IMG/VR virus record: IMGVR_UViG_3300021181_000004
From: a virus
Taxonomy: Duplodnaviria > Caudoviricetes
Strand: one strand, 5' to 3'
DNA length: 64,000 nt
Positions 28,601 to 49,709 of this stretch are shown here, one piece after another. Each line of letters opens with the position of its first letter. Within the stretch, counting starts at the first letter, position 1. The notes beneath the pieces were generated by a model. That model saw nothing but the letters and a program-made list of their open reading frames with translations. It made no database searches and was not told where the DNA came from. A program made the translations under genes and the position numbers.

Positions 28601-31249
28601 AAGAATCCCCTGCCACGCTGAGTCAAACTGGCAATTGGGCGAAGCATCCATAAACAGCGGAGCCACTTCTGATGCTGCCCAGCCACCCAGACCGCAACCA
28701 AGTTGTGTGATCTTGAAGGTCAGTTCAGGGTGATGGGCCGCGTAGAGAAGGAAGCATTCCGTATAAAAACGAAGATCTGCTTCAGAGACCTTCACACGAG
28801 GCTCAGAAACTGTTGGGACAGCGAAAGAGTTACCCTGCGGCCCGAAACCTTGGCCGTAAATAGCCCCATAATTGTCCAGTGCAGTCCTAGCCGCGCCTGC
28901 TCCGTGTCTCCCTATACAATTTGAACCAAACACGAAAATTTCCTTCGACGGTGAATCACTTAAACCCAGATTGGCGTCCTGCAGATTTGTGACGTCCTGC
29001 AGATTTGTGACGTCCTGCAGATTTGTGACGTCCTGCAGATTTGTGACGTCCTGCAGATTTGTGACGTCCTGCAGATAGTCGGGTGCACTCGTAAGTAAAT
29101 CCTGAGGATTAACTGCGTGGTCGTTCAGTGGTGTCATATTTTCTCCTATTGAATTCTACTGTGAAATTTCGGCATTCGGGTATTTAGCCTGTAAATTTTT
29201 CAGTTGTTCTTTCTCGCGCTTTTGTACTTCCGCTAACCGTTTAGTTTCATTTTGGAGTTTCTTCTCTGTTTCTTGACGTTGATACTCCACTTCTTTGGCG
29301 TCGGCCATCGATTTTGCCCCCGCTTGAATCTCGTTCTGAACTACGTCGGTGTCCCAATCAGAGTCTGCACCTGTCTCACCATTAAACAAGAAAGTAATAT
29401 CATAACTAGACTCTCCATGACCTCTGTGCATATCCTTGAACAAGAAGTCAGAAAGAAATTTAGCCGCTTCATGGCGATCCATGGTCGACTTGAACTCAAA
29501 TTCTGAGCCGTAACGAGCCGTGACGCAGCCTCGGCAGGTGTCCTCTGAGTCGGATTTGTAAGCAAGAATAGTGATGATCATTTACTTTCCAATTGCTTTC
29601 TCGGGCGTCCCGGCGAGTTCATAACCGATCATGGTGACGGCGGACTCCAACTTTTGCATGGTGTAGAAAAGACCAAGTTCTCCAGCACGGTGTTTTAGCA
29701 GTGCGACTTCGCTGGCAAAATCCTTGCGTTGCTGTGCTTTGGACTTATTCATAGGCGGACTCACTTCGGATGTTGACCTCTATCCCGACTAATCTATTGA
29801 CCTCAGATTTCTCCAGAGGAAACCAATCCGGCTCTGTGAAGTGCCAACCTTTGGCGTCCTTGTAAGAGGATTTAAAGCGGATTAGTGAATATCTCTCACT
29901 AAGGATTCGATCTATACCGTAGTGCTCGATAAGGATGAGATCATACGGTTGAATCTTGTAATCAGAACAGAGTTGTGCGGCGATGTATTCTGCCGCATTG
30001 GTGATACTGAGTCCCTGGTTTTTCTTAAGTTCGGTTACGATAGCGACAGTGAATTTCTCGCCTCCACCCCGAATAAAAAGATCAAGTTGGCAGTGCGCCT
30101 TGGAGCGAAAGTATCCAGGGTACTCGTACCAATTATTGGTGGAAGAGGTCATTGGGTTGACACTTGGGGATAGCCCAAGCATTTCCAGAGTTGGGCCGCT
30201 CGGTATAATGTGGTTTCTGTTGTCACTTTCCATTAGTGTTCACTCCTCTCTTAGGAAGTTCATGTTATCGGCTCCTCAGGTGCGTGGGCACTGTTGCTTC
30301 GTTGTTTAAGTGACGATAGATCAACTGTTGCTTCGTTGTTTAAGTGACGATAGATCAACTGTCCGATCTGCTTGGTCTCACGCTGGTAGAACGTGACATA
30401 AGTCTTGGTCCGCTTGTACTCAGGCAGCTTGGTGTTCAGGATAACTCGCAACGAATACAGATCACCACTGAGCCACCCCTTACGTCCTGCGAGCAGCTGC
30501 TCTGCCCCCTTGCGAACTGCCAGCCAGGGAATCCTTGCAGCCATTACATCCTTTTGTGCTTGAGCCTCTTTTGCGGCTTTCTCTGCTGCCTTACGCTGCT
30601 CCCAGAAATCTGCGTGCGCGTGCTTCATCTTCTCCCAAAGTTCGGGATTGTAAGCCTGAAAGTGATTGATGCACTCAGAGCCAACCGGAGCTGTGCGTCC
30701 ATCCGGGTGATGAATAACGAAAACGTAACGGATGGGATGATCGCAGGTGCACTTGCCGGATGGAATACCAAGATCGATGACCTCACCGTCGAAAGTCCAC
30801 TCGCGAACATCGCCGAGGCGAGTTACAAATTTGCGGACGATTTCTTTGAAAACGTCGGGAGCAGGTCGCATATCTGCACCAGTAAAGTCGTCATCTCGAA
30901 CCTGCTCGGATTCCCAGAAATCCACTTCATTTTGACGTTCCTGGTTGGGCAGGGCGTCTTCTTCAAAAAAGACTTCTAAAAGTCGTTCCTGTTCCATTGT
31001 CTTCCTCCAGATATAAACTACGGAAAAAAGGCAAAATTCGGCTATTCATGTCGGAGTGCCCAATAGTGATACCAGCGCCAACCGGGGATGGCCGGGTAAG
31101 CCGCTTGGTCTTGTCCGTATTGAGCGAATCCGATCTTGTAGCCGTTGTCCAGCCACGCTCGCGCCTGAGCACATAGGAAGCGAATGATCATAGGCAGGGC
31201 CGATCTGACTTGTCCGGGGTCCATAGCGGCAGATAATCAATAAGGCCAA
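25684..31249 (-). CDS. Run of small leftward hypothetical genes (25684-25989, 26028-26276, 26200-27663, 27660-27869, 27990-28310, 29156-29581, 29582-29764, 29745-30233, 30260-30997, 31046-31249)
   Basis: Tightly packed, co-oriented ORFs, several with ATGA overlaps; no recognisable domains apart from Cys-rich stretches. Confidence 0.55.
28550..29137 (-). CDS. Macro-domain-like phage protein (A1S_2505-type) with an N-terminal LQDVTN repeat
   Basis: IFVFGSNxxGRHGAGAA...GQGFGPQGNSFAVPT...FKITQLGCGLGG. Confidence 0.7.
   Translation of the reverse strand: MTPLNDHAVNPQDLLTSAPDYLQDVTNLQDVTNLQDVTNLQDVTNLQDVTNLQDANLGLSDSPSKEIFVFGSNCIGRHGAGAARTALDNYGAIYGQGFGPQGNSFAVPTVSEPRVKVSEADLRFYTECFLLYAAHHPELTFKITQLGCGLGGWAASEVAPLFMDASPNCQFDSAWQGILGDSKTYWGTFKPRGAF
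28975..29076. repeat. 18-bp tandem repeat, about 5.7 identical copies, in frame
   Basis: cgtcctgcagatttgtga repeated without spacers. Confidence 0.97.
30290..30362. repeat. 34-bp tandem duplication that frameshifts the 3' end of 30260-30997
   Basis: actgttgcttcgttgtttaagtgacgatagatca at 30290 and 30324. Confidence 0.95.
31015..31044 (-). promoter_or_regulatory. Phage promoter motif TAGCCGAAT-N15-TAGTTT
   Basis: Same motif and spacing; GGAGG RBS and gene 30997 follow. Confidence 0.7.
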
Positions 31250-31793
31250 TGGTGTCCTCTTTGTGAATTGGCTCAGTGCCGATAGCGGTCATAATTTTGA
31301 TGCCGGGGCCATAAGCCTCCTCGTTGTCGTCTTCAAACTCATGAACCGCGATTCCGGCCTTGCGGAGCAAGTGATTCACGTGAATGAGTTCGTAGCTGTC
31401 ACGGGTTGCAAGGATAATGCGTGTCATCGGTTTGGGCAAGCTAAACCAAAATTCAGCGAATTTCGGCTTGGGTGTGGTTAAGAGCAATTCGTCATCCTCA
31501 CAGGTGTGCTGGTAGATATACTTTTTGAGCATCATCGTAGTCGTGATGTCTACCACGTGGCCAACCTGAGCCGCAATACGTCCACTGGGTTGAATAATCG
31601 TGTGAGTTTCACCGGGTATCGGGACAACGTACTCGCCATTGGTGTAGAAGTCATGGCGCAGCGGCGTCTGAACCGTTAGAGCCACGATGATGTAGCAGCG
31701 GAAGTCGTCAGGAAAATCGATTTGTGGCTTGTTTCTCATATCAGGGTTGCTTCCCAATCGTGCAATCGCTTCTCCCATGTCCCTATCCACCAC
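31188..31793 (-). CDS. Peptidyl-tRNA hydrolase, PTH2 family
   Basis: GRIAAQVGHV motif, TRIILAT, FEDD...TAIGTEP...YLPLW. Confidence 0.75.
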   Translation of the reverse strand: MVDRDMGEAIARLGSNPDMRNKPQIDFPDDFRCYIIVALTVQTPLRHDFYTNGEYVVPIPGETHTIIQPSGRIAAQVGHVVDITTTMMLKKYIYQHTCEDDELLLTTPKPKFAEFWFSLPKPMTRIILATRDSYELIHVNHLLRKAGIAVHEFEDDNEEAYGPGIKIMTAIGTEPIHKEDTIGLIDYLPLWTPDKSDRPCL

Positions 31794-46612: not shown

Positions 46613-46688
46613 TGGTGGACCCGGCTGGGTCCGTCCCAGCGTAGTCGCATCTTAAAAGGATGGTGCATATCAGCTCTGCCACGGGTCC
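46613..46688 (-). tRNA. tRNA-Lys(UUU), atypical T-loop
   Basis: GGACCCG/CGGGTCC-A-CCA; anticodon loop CTTTTAA; T-loop GACGGAC. Confidence 0.6.
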
Positions 46689-46695
46689 TCTTTTT

Positions 46696-46776
46696 TGGGA
46701 GGGGCAGCAGGATTTGAACCCGCGTTTTCAGTCCGCTACGATGCTCAGATTTAGAAAATCTGGTCGCTATGCCCCC
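46696..46776 (-). tRNA. Degenerate tRNA-like RNA: UCU (Arg) loop, D-arm missing
   Basis: GGGGGCA/TGCCCCT-C-CCA, canonical T-arm GCGGG-TTCAAAT-CCTGC, CAGAT-TTTCTAA-ATCTG arm only 7 nt after the acceptor stem. Confidence 0.45.
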
Positions 46777-48082: not shown

Positions 48083-48195
48083 ATCTTGGTGGAATCGAAC
48101 CACGCCCCGACGTTCATCTGCAATTCCCGCCGTTATTCCCCTCATTACTCACCAGAGTCAGAAGACGACGGAAGTTGCAGCTTCATTCGTCGCCC
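48083..48195 (-). ncRNA. Candidate structured RNA with a loop-loop kiss and a T-loop-like hairpin
   Basis: Stems GGCGACG/CGTCGTC and CGGCG/CGTCG; loops CTGCAA and TTGCAG are complementary; GTGG-TTCGATT-CCAC. Confidence 0.5.
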
Positions 48196-48401: not shown

Positions 48402-48478
48402 TGGTGCGCCGGGTGGGACTTGAACCCACAACCCTTCGGTTAAGAGCCGAGAGCTCTGCCAATTTGAGCTACCGACGC
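48402..48478 (-). tRNA. tRNA-Lys(CUU)
   Basis: Canonical cloverleaf, loop CTCTTAA, CCA. Confidence 0.95.
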
Positions 48479-48533
48479 AAATAAATTTATCATGAACCTC
48501 CCTAGTACCTAGGGTACTAGGGAGTCACGGAAG

Positions 48534-48606
48534 CTGACGAGGAGGGAGTTGAACCCTCTGAGGGCGGTTTAACAGACCGCTACAGTCACCGTGCTGTGCC
48601 TCGCCA
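48534..48606 (-). tRNA. tRNA-Asn(GUU)
   Basis: U1-A72, G73, GCGGT-CTGTTAA-ACCGC; CCA not encoded. Confidence 0.88.
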
Positions 48607-48611
48607 ATCTC

Positions 48612-48691
48612 TGGTGGGGACGGGAGGAATTTAACCAACGCCCTTCCTCTGCTCTAGAACAGAGGCTGCTCCTTCTCCGAGCTGCGTCCCC
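48612..48691 (-). tRNA. Atypical tRNA-like RNA with an 8-nt anticodon loop (TTCTAGAG) and a degenerate T-stem
   Basis: GGGGACG/CGTCCCC-A-CCA; GCTC/GAGC D-stem; CCTCTG/CAGAGG stem. Confidence 0.5.
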
Positions 48692-48700
48692 TTCAAAACT

Positions 48701-48775
48701 TGGTGGGCGAGGAAGGGAATTAAACCCTCCGACCTCCTGCTCATCGCAGGTGCTCTAACACTGAGCTACACGCCC
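48701..48775 (-). tRNA. Atypical tRNA-like RNA (Ala/Val-like body, 5-nt loop GATGA)
   Basis: GGGCGTG acceptor, TAGCTCAG D-arm, CCTGC/GCAGG stem, AGGTC variable loop, CCA. Confidence 0.5.
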
Positions 48776-48776
48776 A

Positions 48777-48860
48777 TGGCTGCGGCAAAAGGATTTGAAC
48801 CTCTACAAGGGAAGCGATCGCGAAACCGCTTGAACCTGCCATCACCGAGGACGGGCCGCA
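48777..48860 (-). tRNA. Degenerate tRNA-like RNA (loop TTCGCG)
   Basis: TGCGGC/GCCGCA-G-CCA and T-arm AGAGG-TTCAAAT-CCTTT; middle irregular. Confidence 0.4.
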
Positions 48861-48869
48861 ATAAAAATT

Positions 48870-48923
48870 TGGTGACCGCTTTGGCTTTCAACCGACCTCA
48901 TCTTGCGACAAGACCAGCGGTCA
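48870..48923 (-). ncRNA. 54-nt CCA-ended mini-tRNA-like RNA
   Basis: TGACCGCT/AGCGGTCA-CCA enclosing two short hairpins. Confidence 0.5.
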
Positions 48924-49008
48924 GCAGCCCTACTCCTGGATTTCACGACGTTCCGTTGATCAGACGTCTATCAGTTTTGGGTCTGGAGCCGTTACCAGTT
49001 CATAAATT

Positions 49009-49064
49009 TGGTGAATGCCCCGCCCTTTCGGACGACATTTCCTAAGCCTTACGGCTTGGCACTC
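49009..49064 (-). ncRNA. 56-nt CCA-ended three-way-junction RNA with two GNRA loops
   Basis: GAGTGCC/GGCATTC-A-CCA; AAGCC-GTAA-GGCTT; TCGTCC-GAAA-GGGCGG. Confidence 0.6.
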
Positions 49065-49115
49065 AATAATCGAACTTCCACTGTCATGAGTAGAGTGCTA
49101 CTCAATGAGGTTCGA

Positions 49116-49709
49116 ATGCTAAACTGCGAAAACTGTACTCTAGAACATGACGGCTCCTACGGGAGCGGACGGTTCTGTAACTCCAAATGTGCTCGTGGCT
49201 TCAGTACAAAAGCTAAAAGAACACAGATAAATCAAATTGTGAGCCGAAAACTTCAGGGTTATAAACCCGTTGTTTCTTTTCAGATTGGCCACAAATTCGT
49301 GGGACGCCCCAAACTTCTATCTTTAGAACAAACCCGTCAATTTCTTTCCCCCGAATATCGGGAAAATATGTCTCAAGTCCTAACCAAACACTACGCTCAA
49401 AAACTCCAAAAAGCTGCTAAAAACTGGTTAGCTGGAGTTCCTTTTCTTCTTTCTTCAAAAGGACGTAATCTTTGGTCCCTAAAAAGAATGGTTATCCTCA
49501 TTAGAGGAAATCGTTGTGAAAATTGCGGTTGGTGTAAAATTCATCCCATCACCGGCAATGTTCCCGTACAACTGCATCATGAAGATGGCGATCACTCCAA
49601 TAATGCTCCTGACAATGTTAAACTTCTTTGCCCCAACTGCCACTCACTTACTCCTAATTACATGGCACTCAATAAAGGAGCAACATGTCCGGGCAAACGT
49701 TATAATTAA
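49116..49709 (+). CDS. HNH homing endonuclease inserted antisense within the tRNA cluster
   Basis: CENCG...VQLHHEDGDHSNNAPDNVKLLCPNCHS; GAGG RBS before ATG 49116. Confidence 0.9.
   Translation: MLNCENCTLEHDGSYGSGRFCNSKCARGFSTKAKRTQINQIVSRKLQGYKPVVSFQIGHKFVGRPKLLSLEQTRQFLSPEYRENMSQVLTKHYAQKLQKAAKNWLAGVPFLLSSKGRNLWSLKRMVILIRGNRCENCGWCKIHPITGNVPVQLHHEDGDHSNNAPDNVKLLCPNCHSLTPNYMALNKGATCPGKRYN

What the first reader, a model, noticed from the sequence alone, without database searches (positions are those of the whole stretch)
48612..49064. Array of five CCA-ended non-canonical tRNA-like RNAs, two reduced to about 55-nt three-way junctions
Seen: five consecutive elements, each with a paired acceptor-like stem and terminal CCA. 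They carry an 8-nt loop (TTCTAGAG), a 5-nt loop (GATGA), a 6-nt loop (TTCGCG), and two mini-RNAs (48870-48923, 49009-49064), the last with two GNRA-capped helices. A D-armless element also lies at 46696. Intact stems and CCA ends despite destroyed anticodon arms suggest selection. Inference: decoys for acceptor-end-targeting toxins or uncharged-tRNA sensors (RelA-like), amino-acid donors, or frameshift suppressors.
Basis: partly seen in the sequence, partly recalled or inferred. Interest (0 to 1): 0.65.

Follow-up and report, generated by a model that had tools for sequence, protein, structure and literature searches.

The report
Anticodon-less tRNA mimics in phage tRNA operon
An uncultured giant soil phage carries, inside its tRNA gene array, five small tRNA-derived genes that keep the tRNA's acceptor stem and CCA tail but have no usable anticodon loop; at least two are conserved by selection, so they are probably working non-decoding RNAs, perhaps mimics of tRNA ends.

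Summary
Five consecutive CCA-ended elements lie on the minus strand at 48612-49064, inside a phage tRNA array. E1 has an 8-nt loop, or an 8-bp stem with a CUAG tetraloop. E2 has a tRNA-Lys-like body with a 5-nt loop. E3 has a long arm with an invariant UUCGCG loop. E4 and E5 are 53- and 56-nt three-way junctions with GNRA-capped hairpins.

E3 and E5 recur in both other available lineages of this phage clade. Their helices are kept by compensatory changes: 8 of 27 pairs in E3 and 9 of 18 in E5. They are as conserved as the true tRNAs beside them. They are therefore selected structured RNAs, not decay products. E2 keeps its body but its anticodon arm is rewritten. E1 and E4 have no orthologues, so selection on them is untested.

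None of the five can decode. I found no quadruplet or amber target for E1.

My best model is that they are co-processed with the tRNAs and act through the acceptor/CCA end, as decoys or competitors. This function is inferred; no expression data could be obtained.

The closest known parallel is T4 RNAC/RNAD. The scan had not noted these families on other DNA; its notes on expanded-loop tRNAs in other phages concern a different thing.

The parts
48612..48691 (-). E1: 80-nt tRNA-like RNA gene. It has a perfect 7-bp acceptor stem followed by ACCA, and a D arm. The anticodon arm is a near-palindrome that folds either as 6 bp with the 8-nt loop UUCUAGAG or as 8 bp with a CUAG tetraloop. The T arm is degenerate. 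It is specific to this lineage.
   Evidence: 22.9 bits; absent from L002-L004
48701..48775 (-). E2: 75-nt RNA with a tRNA-Lys-like body. The anticodon stem is 5 bp with the 5-nt loop GAUGA, and the T stem has 6 bp. Its orthologue in L002 has a different anticodon arm with a 9-nt loop.
   Evidence: (34.2 bits)
48777..48860 (-). E3: 84-nt conserved tRNA-like RNA. It has a 6-bp acceptor stem, a 5-bp D-like hairpin, a long arm of 3 + 8 bp with the invariant loop GGUUUCGCGAUC, a T arm with loop UUCAAAU, and a GCCA end.
48870..48922 (-). E4: 53-nt mini three-way junction. It has a 7-bp acceptor stem, a 9-bp hairpin capped by GCAA, a 3-4-bp hairpin capped by (U)GAAA, and an ACCA end.
   Evidence: (18.3 bits to the E5 model)
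48923..49008 (-). Unassigned 86-nt spacer between E5 and E4. It shares short motifs (GAUAGACGU, CGUCGUGAAAUCC) with the equivalent stretches of L002 and L006, but has no convincing fold.
49009..49064 (-). E5: 56-nt conserved mini three-way junction. The 7-bp acceptor stem (with G3.U70) is stacked on a 6-bp GAAA-capped helix, giving 13 bp in all. It also has a 5-bp GUAA-capped hairpin, a GAAAU linker and an ACCA end.
48533..48606 (-). tRNA-Asn(GUU), immediately downstream of E1. It has no encoded CCA.
48402..48478 (-). tRNA-Lys(CUU), the next gene in the same array.
49086..49709 (+). HNH homing-endonuclease gene on the opposite strand. It separates E5 from tRNA-Arg(ACG). Its insertion site differs among relatives.
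46696..46776 (-). tRNA-Arg(UCU)-like gene without a conventional D arm. This is the 'D-armless element' of the finding.
   Evidence: (31 bits)

Best explanation
The five elements are tRNA-derived genes for small RNAs that cannot decode. They sit in the phage's tRNA operon and keep exactly what tRNA-end enzymes read: a 6-7-bp acceptor stem stacked on a T-like helix, a purine at position 73, an encoded CCA, mostly U at -1 and G at +1, and tRNA-like spacers. They have lost what the ribosome and most aminoacyl-tRNA synthetases read, namely a 7-nt anticodon loop.

Shown here: E3 and E5 are conserved structured RNAs under purifying selection. E2 keeps its body while its anticodon arm is rewritten.

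Inferred: they are co-transcribed with the tRNAs. RNase P cuts the 5' end and endo- and exonucleases trim the 3' end, releasing stable CCA-ended RNAs. These act in trans as mimics of tRNA acceptor ends. They would compete for, or soak up, host factors that attack or mark tRNA 3' ends. Candidates are CCA-tail nucleases such as Cas12a3, toxSAS pyrophosphokinases, MenT/AbiEii nucleotidyltransferases and GNAT toxins. Because they cannot enter translation, they would do this without disturbing decoding.

My odds are about 0.75 that E3 and E5 are functional non-decoding RNAs, and about 0.3 that the function is acceptor-end decoying. E1 and E4 may be young members of the set or by-products.
For: - Structure and ends are as described.
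- E5: 18 pairs, 9 with changes on both sides, 98.5% of cells paired. None of 500 shuffles reaches this, and slid controls give 31-52%.
- E3: 27 pairs, 8 with changes on both sides, 98.8% paired. Its loop is invariant.
- Identity between the window and L002 is 91% for E5 and 85% for E3, against 60-84% for nine canonical tRNAs. Identity with L006 is 64% and 74%, against 58-75%.
- In L006, E5 sits between two tRNA-Asn genes with spacers of 2 and 11 nt. It is therefore not needed as a processing signal there.
- No promoter or terminator signal stands out inside the run.
- More distant relatives also carry anticodon-less tRNA-like genes capped by tetraloops: L034:2724-2820 and L054:4583-4658.
[quoted passage not shown] FaRel2 reads the acceptor stem (10.1101/2024.07.05.602228). 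MenT toxins extend tRNA 3' ends (PMC10435456). Phage tRNAs can counter tRNA-directed defences (PMC11555353).
Against:
- Only three lineages carry E3 and E5, so covariation rests on few independent events. Shuffle controls ignore relatedness.
- E1 and E4 have no orthologues. The E4 region is rearranged in L002.
- HNH endonucleases move within the array and leave partial tRNA copies, for example L002:9808-9871. Some elements could therefore be debris.
- L003 carries a G.G mismatch and a non-GNRA loop in its E5.
- No partner protein or defence system is identified. Neighbouring genes give no clue.
- The host is unknown.
Confidence: 0.4

Rival explanations
1. They are processing punctuation. Like plant mitochondrial t-elements or the mascRNA element of MALAT1, they would serve only as RNase P and 3'-end cleavage signals. 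These signals would define the ends of neighbouring RNAs in a long transcript that includes antisense HNH sequence and other structured spacers.
For: - They have acceptor/T-like helices with RCCA, and U at -1 and G at +1. The 13-bp GAAA-capped helix of E5 resembles model hairpin substrates of RNase P (own knowledge).
- In the window, E5 follows about 640 nt of antisense HNH sequence, and E4 follows an unassigned spacer.
- t-elements are an established precedent (PMC1920247).
Against: - Five elements stand in a row, separated by only 1-13 nt apart from the 86-nt spacer between E5 and E4. In L006, E5 lies between two tRNAs that are themselves cleavage signals.
- Single-stranded parts are conserved while stems vary: the E3 loop and the E5 GAAAU linker.
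- The extra hairpins are maintained by compensatory change, although cleavage would not need them.
Confidence: 0.2
2. They are tRNA pseudogenes and recombination debris. Homing-endonuclease traffic and duplication in the array would have left damaged tRNA copies that persist without function. Their intact stems would reflect youth.
For: - E1 and E4 are lineage-specific.
- The anticodon arm of E2 differs completely between the window and L002.
- The T arm of E1 is degenerate.
- HNH insertion sites differ between lineages, and a partial Arg(ACG) copy lies next to the HNH gene in L002.
- About 10% of tRNA-like genes in related arrays escape ARAGORN.
Against: - E3 and E5 persist with compensatory changes across lineages whose neighbouring protein is only 68% identical, and they are as conserved as true tRNAs.
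- Both GNRA caps of E5 are kept in three versions.
- The acceptor stems of E1 and E2 differ by three changes on both sides and still pair.
Confidence: 0.2
3. They are dedicated aminoacyl carriers. Charged on the acceptor stem alone, for example E5 by AlaRS through G3.U70 with A73, they would deliver amino acids to a non-ribosomal reaction. Such reactions include Fem-type or Mom-type GNAT transfer and DNA hypermodification. The carriers would not enter translation.
For: - E5 of the window and of L002 has G3.U70 and A73, as does the phage's own tmRNA acceptor (note e1-5388846).
- The 13-bp acceptor/T helices of E2 and E5 recall tRNA-Sec, which EF-Tu rejects (own knowledge).
- Mom uses Gly-tRNA to modify DNA (PMC13219725).
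- The phage encodes a 5-hmdU DNA kinase, so its DNA is probably hypermodified.
Against: - L006 has U3.G70 and L003 has G.G at this pair, so the Ala determinant is not conserved.
- E1 to E4 carry no known identity set that works without an anticodon.
- No GNAT, Fem or Mom-like gene was found in the window.
- As far as I know, thymidine hypermodification pathways use free amino acids.
Confidence: 0.1
4. E1 is a working decoder: a quadruplet (CUAG or UAGA) or amber-suppressing tRNA that unlocks a phage gene. Expanded-loop tRNAs noted elsewhere in this scan appear to work this way.
For: - The 8-nt loop UUCUAGAG has U33, then CUAG, then A37.
- The same array holds a UCA suppressor tRNA paired with a UGA-locked gene (note e1-5388844).
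- L002 has a tRNA with the 9-nt loop AUUUCAAAC.
Against: - The arm prefers an 8-bp stem with a tetraloop.
- The T arm is degenerate and the Rfam score is below threshold.
- E1 has no orthologue.
- A scan of CTAG and TAGA sites gave only noise-level candidates.
- TAG is not over-represented between in-frame open frames, and all three stop codons are in use.
- The PTH2-like gene, which is a quadruplet target elsewhere, has its own start here.
Confidence: 0.07

Closest known systems
Phage T4 RNAC and RNAD (species 1 and 2 stable RNAs, genes rnaC and rnaD)
   Same: They are small non-coding RNAs encoded inside a phage tRNA cluster, next to a homing-endonuclease gene, and transcribed with the tRNAs. 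Their function is still unknown (PMC3014915, PMC9697503; annotation). RNAC folds with a canonical T arm and a closing stem.
   Different: The T4 RNAs are 119-139 nt and have no encoded CCA. They have no GNRA-capped three-way junction and no sequence similarity to the elements here. E3 to E5 are 53-84 nt, with a complete acceptor stem and encoded RCCA.
tRNA-like processing elements (plant mitochondrial t-elements; mascRNA from MALAT1)
   Same: They are tRNA-like folds without a decoding function that tRNA end-processing enzymes recognise (PMC1920247; the weak mascRNA hits lie on true tRNAs only).
   Different: Those elements mark mRNA or lncRNA ends. Here the elements stand in tandem among tRNAs, where no extra signal is needed, and they have conserved loops.
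Acceptor-T minihelices and hairpin model substrates of RNase P, the CCA-adding enzyme and AlaRS; the tRNA-like domain of tmRNA
   Same: E5 is in essence a 13-bp acceptor/T-like helix with a GNRA cap and ACCA. In two lineages it has G3.U70 and A73.
   Different: The model substrates are laboratory constructs or parts of larger RNAs. E5 has an extra conserved hairpin and linker. The Ala determinants are not conserved in L006.
Non-proteinogenic or pseudo-tRNAs of bacteria (Staphylococcus tRNA-Gly for cell-wall synthesis, Bacillus cereus tRNA-Other) and phage tRNAs that counter tRNA-directed defences
   Same: They are tRNA-derived genes kept for roles other than, or beyond, ordinary decoding. Phage tRNAs serving as counter-defence are documented (PMC11555353).
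   Different: All of those keep a 7-nt anticodon loop and are aminoacylated. E1 to E5 lack a usable anticodon loop.
+1 frameshift-suppressor tRNAs with 8-nt anticodon loops (sufD class); relevant to E1 only
   Same: E1 can be drawn with an 8-nt loop holding a possible four-base anticodon.
   Different: E1 has a degenerate T arm and a palindromic arm that prefers to close. No cognate four-base site was found.
Armless mitochondrial tRNAs of nematodes and mites (42-54 nt)
   Same: The size is similar, and they have an acceptor stem with CCA plus reduced arms.
   Different: Those tRNAs keep a 5-bp anticodon stem with a 7-nt loop. E4 and E5 have only tetraloop-capped hairpins.

Membership tests
Canonical tRNA (Rfam RF00005) | Covariance-model score at or above the gathering threshold of 29 bits | tested here: not met
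   E2 scores 34.2 bits and so meets the threshold. E1 scores 22.9 bits. E3, E4 and E5 give no match even at E <= 10. The criterion is met by one element of five.
Canonical tRNA (Rfam RF00005) | A 7-nt anticodon loop with U33 and a purine at position 37 | tested here: not met
   The loops are 8 nt (or 4) in E1, 5 nt in E2 and 6 nt (or 4) in E3. E4 and E5 have tetraloops only.
Canonical tRNA (Rfam RF00005) | A 7-bp acceptor stem, a discriminator base and a 3' CCA | tested here: met
   Pairing is 7/7 in E1, E4 and E5 and 6/7 in E2. E3 has 6 bp. All five end in RCCA.
Quadruplet-decoding / +1 frameshift-suppressor tRNA (E1) | An expanded anticodon loop together with a matching four-base site in a gene that needs the shift | tested here: inconclusive
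   The 8-nt loop is present. Scans for CTAG and TAGA junctions gave only noise-level candidates. There is no excess of TAG. The PTH2-like gene has its own start. The 75-kb record is only part of the genome.
Quadruplet-decoding / +1 frameshift-suppressor tRNA (E1) | An otherwise intact tRNA body, meaning a T arm and elbow fit for EF-Tu and the ribosome | tested here: not met
   The T stem pairs at only about 3 of 5 positions. The score is 22.9 bits, and the minimum-energy fold closes the loop into an 8-bp stem.
T4 RNAC/RNAD-type stable RNAs of phage tRNA clusters | A non-tRNA small RNA gene inside a phage tRNA cluster, with a tRNA-like 3' domain | tested here: met
   The position within the array is clear. 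T4 rnaC shows a T arm and a closing stem.
T4 RNAC/RNAD-type stable RNAs of phage tRNA clusters | Accumulation as a discrete stable RNA during infection | not testable with these tools
AlaRS-charged minihelix / tmRNA-like acceptor (E5) | A G3.U70 pair with A73, conserved in the family | tested here: not met
   The window and L002 have G.U, L003 has G.G and L006 has U.G. A73 is conserved.
t-element / mascRNA-type processing signal | Placement at the boundary of a non-tRNA transcript whose end it defines | tested here: not met
   In L006, E5 lies between two tRNA-Asn genes. In the window, E3, E2 and E1 abut one another.
Armless mitochondrial tRNA | An anticodon stem-loop with a 7-nt loop between the acceptor strands | tested here: not met
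   Both internal hairpins of E4 and E5 carry 4-nt GNRA-type loops.

The most novel reading that the evidence does not exclude
This clade of giant soil phages has evolved a small family of anticodon-less, CCA-ended tRNA mimics, including 53-56-nt GNRA-capped three-way junctions. These would be made in bulk from the tRNA operon. They would act as RNA sponges or competitive substrates for host immune effectors that cut, extend, pyrophosphorylate or acetylate tRNA 3' ends. This would be an RNA-based anti-defence that protects the translating tRNA pool.
Probability: 0.2. Interest if true: 0.85.

Novelty: new variant of a known kind. Interest (0 to 1): 0.6.

Why it matters
tRNA ends and anticodon loops are now recognised as major targets of bacterial immunity, and phage tRNAs as a counter-measure. 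The roles of non-tRNA small RNAs in phage tRNA clusters, such as T4 RNAC/RNAD, have stayed unknown for fifty years.

This locus offers compact, conserved and easily synthesised RNAs of 53-84 nt. They isolate the acceptor/CCA half of a tRNA from its decoding half. That makes one question directly testable in vitro with RNase P, the CCA-adding enzyme, AlaRS and known tRNA-end toxins: what does a phage gain from a tRNA that cannot decode?

If they prove to be decoys, they would be a new class of RNA anti-defence. They would also be a ready-made scaffold for probes of effectors that target tRNA ends.

Tried and rejected
- **Relatives from single proteins.** Look-ups with single proteins in IMG/VR found nothing. 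An exact 20-mer of E5 found nothing. A 14-mer of the E3 loop gave only chance matches without a T arm.
- **Structure-aware patterns.** IUPAC patterns for E5 and E3 found nothing more in IMG/VR or in 185,579 prokaryote genomes.
- **Covariance models.** The models R1 and R2 found no further members in 571 kb of related loci. R1 gave a weak hit to E4, and R2 gave only low-scoring hits to ordinary tRNAs.
- **Rfam.** There is no family for E3 to E5.
- **Cultured phages.** No close relative exists in the phage collection.
- **Antisense or primer-site idea.** The longest complementarity elsewhere in the 75-kb record is 11-12 nt, which is about chance level. I rejected this idea.
- **Quadruplet or amber decoding by E1.** This was not supported.
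- **Link to the PTH2-like gene.** The gene has its own start.
- **Promoters and terminators.** Counts are at shuffle level.
- **Neighbouring proteins.** None is tRNA-related apart from an M24 aminopeptidase and a distant PTH2-like gene.
- **Cyanophage idea.** The GCGATCGC-like motif in E3 first suggested a cyanophage. I dropped this, since the motif is simply the invariant E3 loop region.
Full report
**Context.** The window is the minus strand of a 75,462-base IMG/VR virus record with terminal repeats. The record encodes rIIA/rIIB, several HNH endonucleases, a 5-hmdU DNA kinase, a 5'-3' exonuclease, an M24 aminopeptidase and a PTH2-like protein. It has no close cultured relative. Homologues of a neighbouring gene lie on contigs of up to 435 kb, so this is an uncultured jumbo phage. 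ARAGORN and Rfam find 16-17 tRNAs and a two-piece tmRNA; the tRNAs are all on the window's minus strand between 46.6 and 56.2 kb. The finding lies inside this array. It sits between an opposite-strand HNH gene (49086-49709) and tRNA-Asn (48533-48606).

**Checking the observation.** Read on the minus strand, the five elements are as described.
- E1 (48612-48691) has a perfect acceptor stem followed by ACCA, and a D arm. Its anticodon arm is almost a DNA palindrome. It can be drawn as 6 bp with the 8-nt loop UUCUAGAG, but the minimum-energy fold is 8 bp with a CUAG tetraloop. Its T arm is poor, and it scores 22.9 bits against the Rfam tRNA model.
- E2 (48701-48775) scores 34.2 bits and looks like a bacterial tRNA-Lys body. 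Its anticodon stem closes on the 5-nt loop GAUGA, and its T stem has 6 bp.
- E3 (48777-48860), E4 (48870-48922) and E5 (49009-49064) give no Rfam match at all.
- E4 and E5 are three-way junctions of 53 and 56 nt. Their internal hairpins carry the caps GCAA and (U)GAAA in E4, and GUAA and GAAA in E5.
- All five end in RCCA. Four of them have U at -1 (E1 has A) and four have G at +1 (E3 has U). Their spacers look like those of the neighbouring tRNAs. E3 and E2 are separated by a single nucleotide.
- In this region, perfect acceptor-type closures followed by NCCA are almost exclusively tRNAs or these elements.

**Finding relatives.** Its homologues led to syntenic contigs. Two further lineages share the local gene order. 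One is L002-L004, with 91% protein identity. The other is L006, L007, L029 and L030, with 68-69% identity. More distant relatives have different tRNA sets.

**E5 is a conserved family.** The same architecture occurs in all three lineages, with different stem sequences. It consists of a 7-bp acceptor stem, a 4-5-bp hairpin with a GNRA cap, a linker containing GAAAU, a 6-bp GNRA-capped helix stacked directly on the acceptor stem, and ACCA. Of its 18 pairs, 9 have changes on both sides and 98.5% of cells are paired. No shuffle reaches this, and slid registers give 31-52%.

**E3 is also conserved.** RNAalifold gives the following structure. A 6-bp acceptor stem is followed at once by a 5-bp D-like hairpin. 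Next comes a long arm of 3 bp, an internal loop and 8 bp, ending in an invariant GGUUUCGCGAUC. Then come a 5-bp T arm with loop UUCRAAU and a GCCA end. Eight of 27 pairs change on both sides, and 98.8% of cells are paired.

**Conservation compared with true tRNAs.** Between the window and L002, E5 is 91% identical and E3 is 85% identical. Nine orthologous canonical tRNAs are 60-84% identical. Against L006, E3 is at the top of the tRNA range and E5 is in the middle of it. These two elements are therefore selected structured RNAs, not decay products. The caveat is that only three lineages exist. Covariance models and degenerate patterns found no other members in related loci, in IMG/VR or in prokaryote genomes.

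**E2, E1 and E4.**
- The L002 orthologue of E2 keeps the acceptor stem, D arm and 6-bp T stem, with compensatory changes. Its anticodon arm, however, is entirely different: CCCGG-UCUUUUCGA-CCGGG. ARAGORN calls it Lys-UUU, and it scores 43.9 bits. The body is under constraint, while the loop is not.
- E1 is absent from L002, where the E2 orthologue abuts tRNA-Asn. It resembles E2, sharing the odd T loop UU(U/A)AAUU. If E1 is a paralogue of E2, its acceptor stem has three changes on both sides and still pairs.
- E4 has no orthologue, and the region is rearranged in L002. It matches the E5 model only weakly, at 18.3 bits and E = 0.34. It shares its layout with another mini element at L002:12051-12103.
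- HNH genes sit at different places in the three lineages and have left a partial Arg(ACG) copy in L002. Some elements could therefore be by-products of recombination.

**A wider theme.** In more distant relatives, about a tenth of tRNA-like genes in the arrays escape ARAGORN. Some again have the anticodon loop replaced by a closed hairpin. L034:2724-2820 has UCCC-GCAA-GGGA. L054:4583-4658 has a 7-bp stem with UUGC. L008:11820-11886 is a long hairpin ending in ACCA.

**What they cannot be.**
- None of the five has a 7-nt anticodon loop, so ordinary decoding is excluded.
- For E1 as a quadruplet or amber reader, I found no convincing CUAG or UAGA junction. TAG shows no excess between in-frame open frames, and all three stop codons are in use. 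The PTH2-like gene, which is a quadruplet target in other phages according to earlier notes, has its own start here.
- There is no antisense target or primer-binding site beyond chance in the record.
- The Ala identity pair of E5 (G3.U70 with A73) is present in two lineages. It is U.G in L006 and G.G in L003, so charging by AlaRS cannot be the conserved function.

**How it most likely works.**
- Shown: the elements retain the acceptor/T-like coaxial helix, the purine at 73, the CCA and tRNA-like flanks, and two of them are under purifying selection.
- From established knowledge: bacterial RNase P needs little more than such a helix with a 3' RCCA. Hairpins with a GAAA cap are standard model substrates.
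- Inferred: they are co-transcribed with the tRNAs, since no internal promoter or terminator stands out, and are released as stable CCA-ended RNAs.

A pure punctuation role is unlikely for three reasons. The elements stand in tandem. E5 of L006 lies between two tRNAs. Loops and linkers are conserved while stems vary.

I therefore favour a trans-acting role through the acceptor end. Several defence effectors read exactly this part of tRNA. [quoted passage not shown] FaRel2 inspects the acceptor stem (10.1101/2024.07.05.602228). MenT toxins extend the 3' end (PMC10435456). Phage tRNAs are known to counter tRNA-directed immunity (PMC11555353). A mimic that cannot enter translation would be a cheap competitor or sponge. 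This last step is speculation; I give it about 0.3.

**Comparison with what is known.** The nearest precedent is T4 RNAC/RNAD. These are small stable RNAs of unknown function in the T4 tRNA cluster (PMC3014915, PMC9697503). RNAC folds with a T arm and a closing stem. They are larger, lack an encoded CCA and are unrelated in sequence. Other partial parallels are t-elements and mascRNA, acceptor minihelices and the tmRNA tRNA-like domain, non-proteinogenic tRNAs, and armless mitochondrial tRNAs. Each of these fails at least one defining feature (see the membership table). I found no paper describing GNRA-capped, CCA-ended mini three-way junctions or E3-like RNAs in phage tRNA arrays, but the library is incomplete.

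**Verdict.** This is a real feature, partly shown to be under selection, and a new variant of the known kind 'tRNA-like small RNAs in phage tRNA clusters'. Its function is unknown. The acceptor-end mimic model is the best-supported working hypothesis. Interest is moderate to high because the RNAs are small, conserved and directly testable.

Noticed in passing
window 46613-46688 (-): A tRNA-Lys(UUU)-like gene with a normal anticodon loop (CUUUUAA), but a 6-bp T stem and the 5-nt T loop ACGGA. Neither ARAGORN nor Rfam called it.
   Followed up: partly
window 48479-48532 (-): A perfect hairpin of about 12 bp (z = -5.5) with CUAG-containing palindromic sequence and a U-rich tail, between tRNA-Asn and tRNA-Lys. 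Its loop region is complementary to the CUAG in the loop of E1. It could be a processing site, a terminator or a kissing partner.
   Followed up: partly
window 48533-48606 (-): This tRNA-Asn(GUU) lacks an encoded CCA, whereas nearly all other tRNAs of the array and all five non-canonical elements encode it.
   Followed up: no
L003:11937-11995 compared with L002:10117-10175: L003 and L002 are identical over about 740 nt except for four substitutions. All four lie in or just after E5: one in the linker, one changing the tetraloop GAAA to GACA, one at acceptor position 70, and one in the trailer. This is either a local mutation cluster or an assembly variant.
   Followed up: no
L002:9808-10016: A partial copy of tRNA-Arg(ACG) (25.6 bits) lies next to the HNH gene. 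It is followed by a structured element of about 145 nt closed by a 9-10-bp helix (GGCAAUCCC/GGGAUUGCC). The pattern suggests a duplication made by a homing endonuclease.
   Followed up: partly
L006:9007-9182 and L006:9709-9853: Two long stretches (about 145-175 nt) in the array end in ACCA followed by AGUUU, like the tRNAs. The first shares motifs with the spacer between E5 and E4 in the window. Their folds are uncertain.
   Followed up: partly
L034:2724-2820; L054:4583-4658; L008:11820-11886; L002:12051-12103: Further CCA-ended non-decoding tRNA-like genes occur in related phages. They include a tRNA body whose anticodon arm is UCCC-GCAA-GGGA, a 7-bp stem with a UUGC cap, a 67-nt hairpin ending in ACCA, and a 53-nt mini element with a GUAA cap.
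   Followed up: partly
L002:7067-7143: A tRNA (49.1 bits) with the 9-nt anticodon loop AUUUCAAAC lies upstream of the UGA-locked gene. It may belong to the four-base-codon switches noted by earlier agents.
   Followed up: no
window 31188-31793 (-) and 57184-58059 (-): There is a PTH2-like peptidyl-tRNA hydrolase gene with its own start, coupled to the stop of the upstream gene. There is also a 5-hmdU DNA kinase, which implies hypermodified thymidine in the phage DNA.
   Followed up: partly
window 48087-48127 (-): An isolated T-arm hairpin (GUGG-UUCGAUU-CCAC) followed by CA lies in the leader of a small gene. It is probably the remnant of a tRNA 3' half.
   Followed up: no
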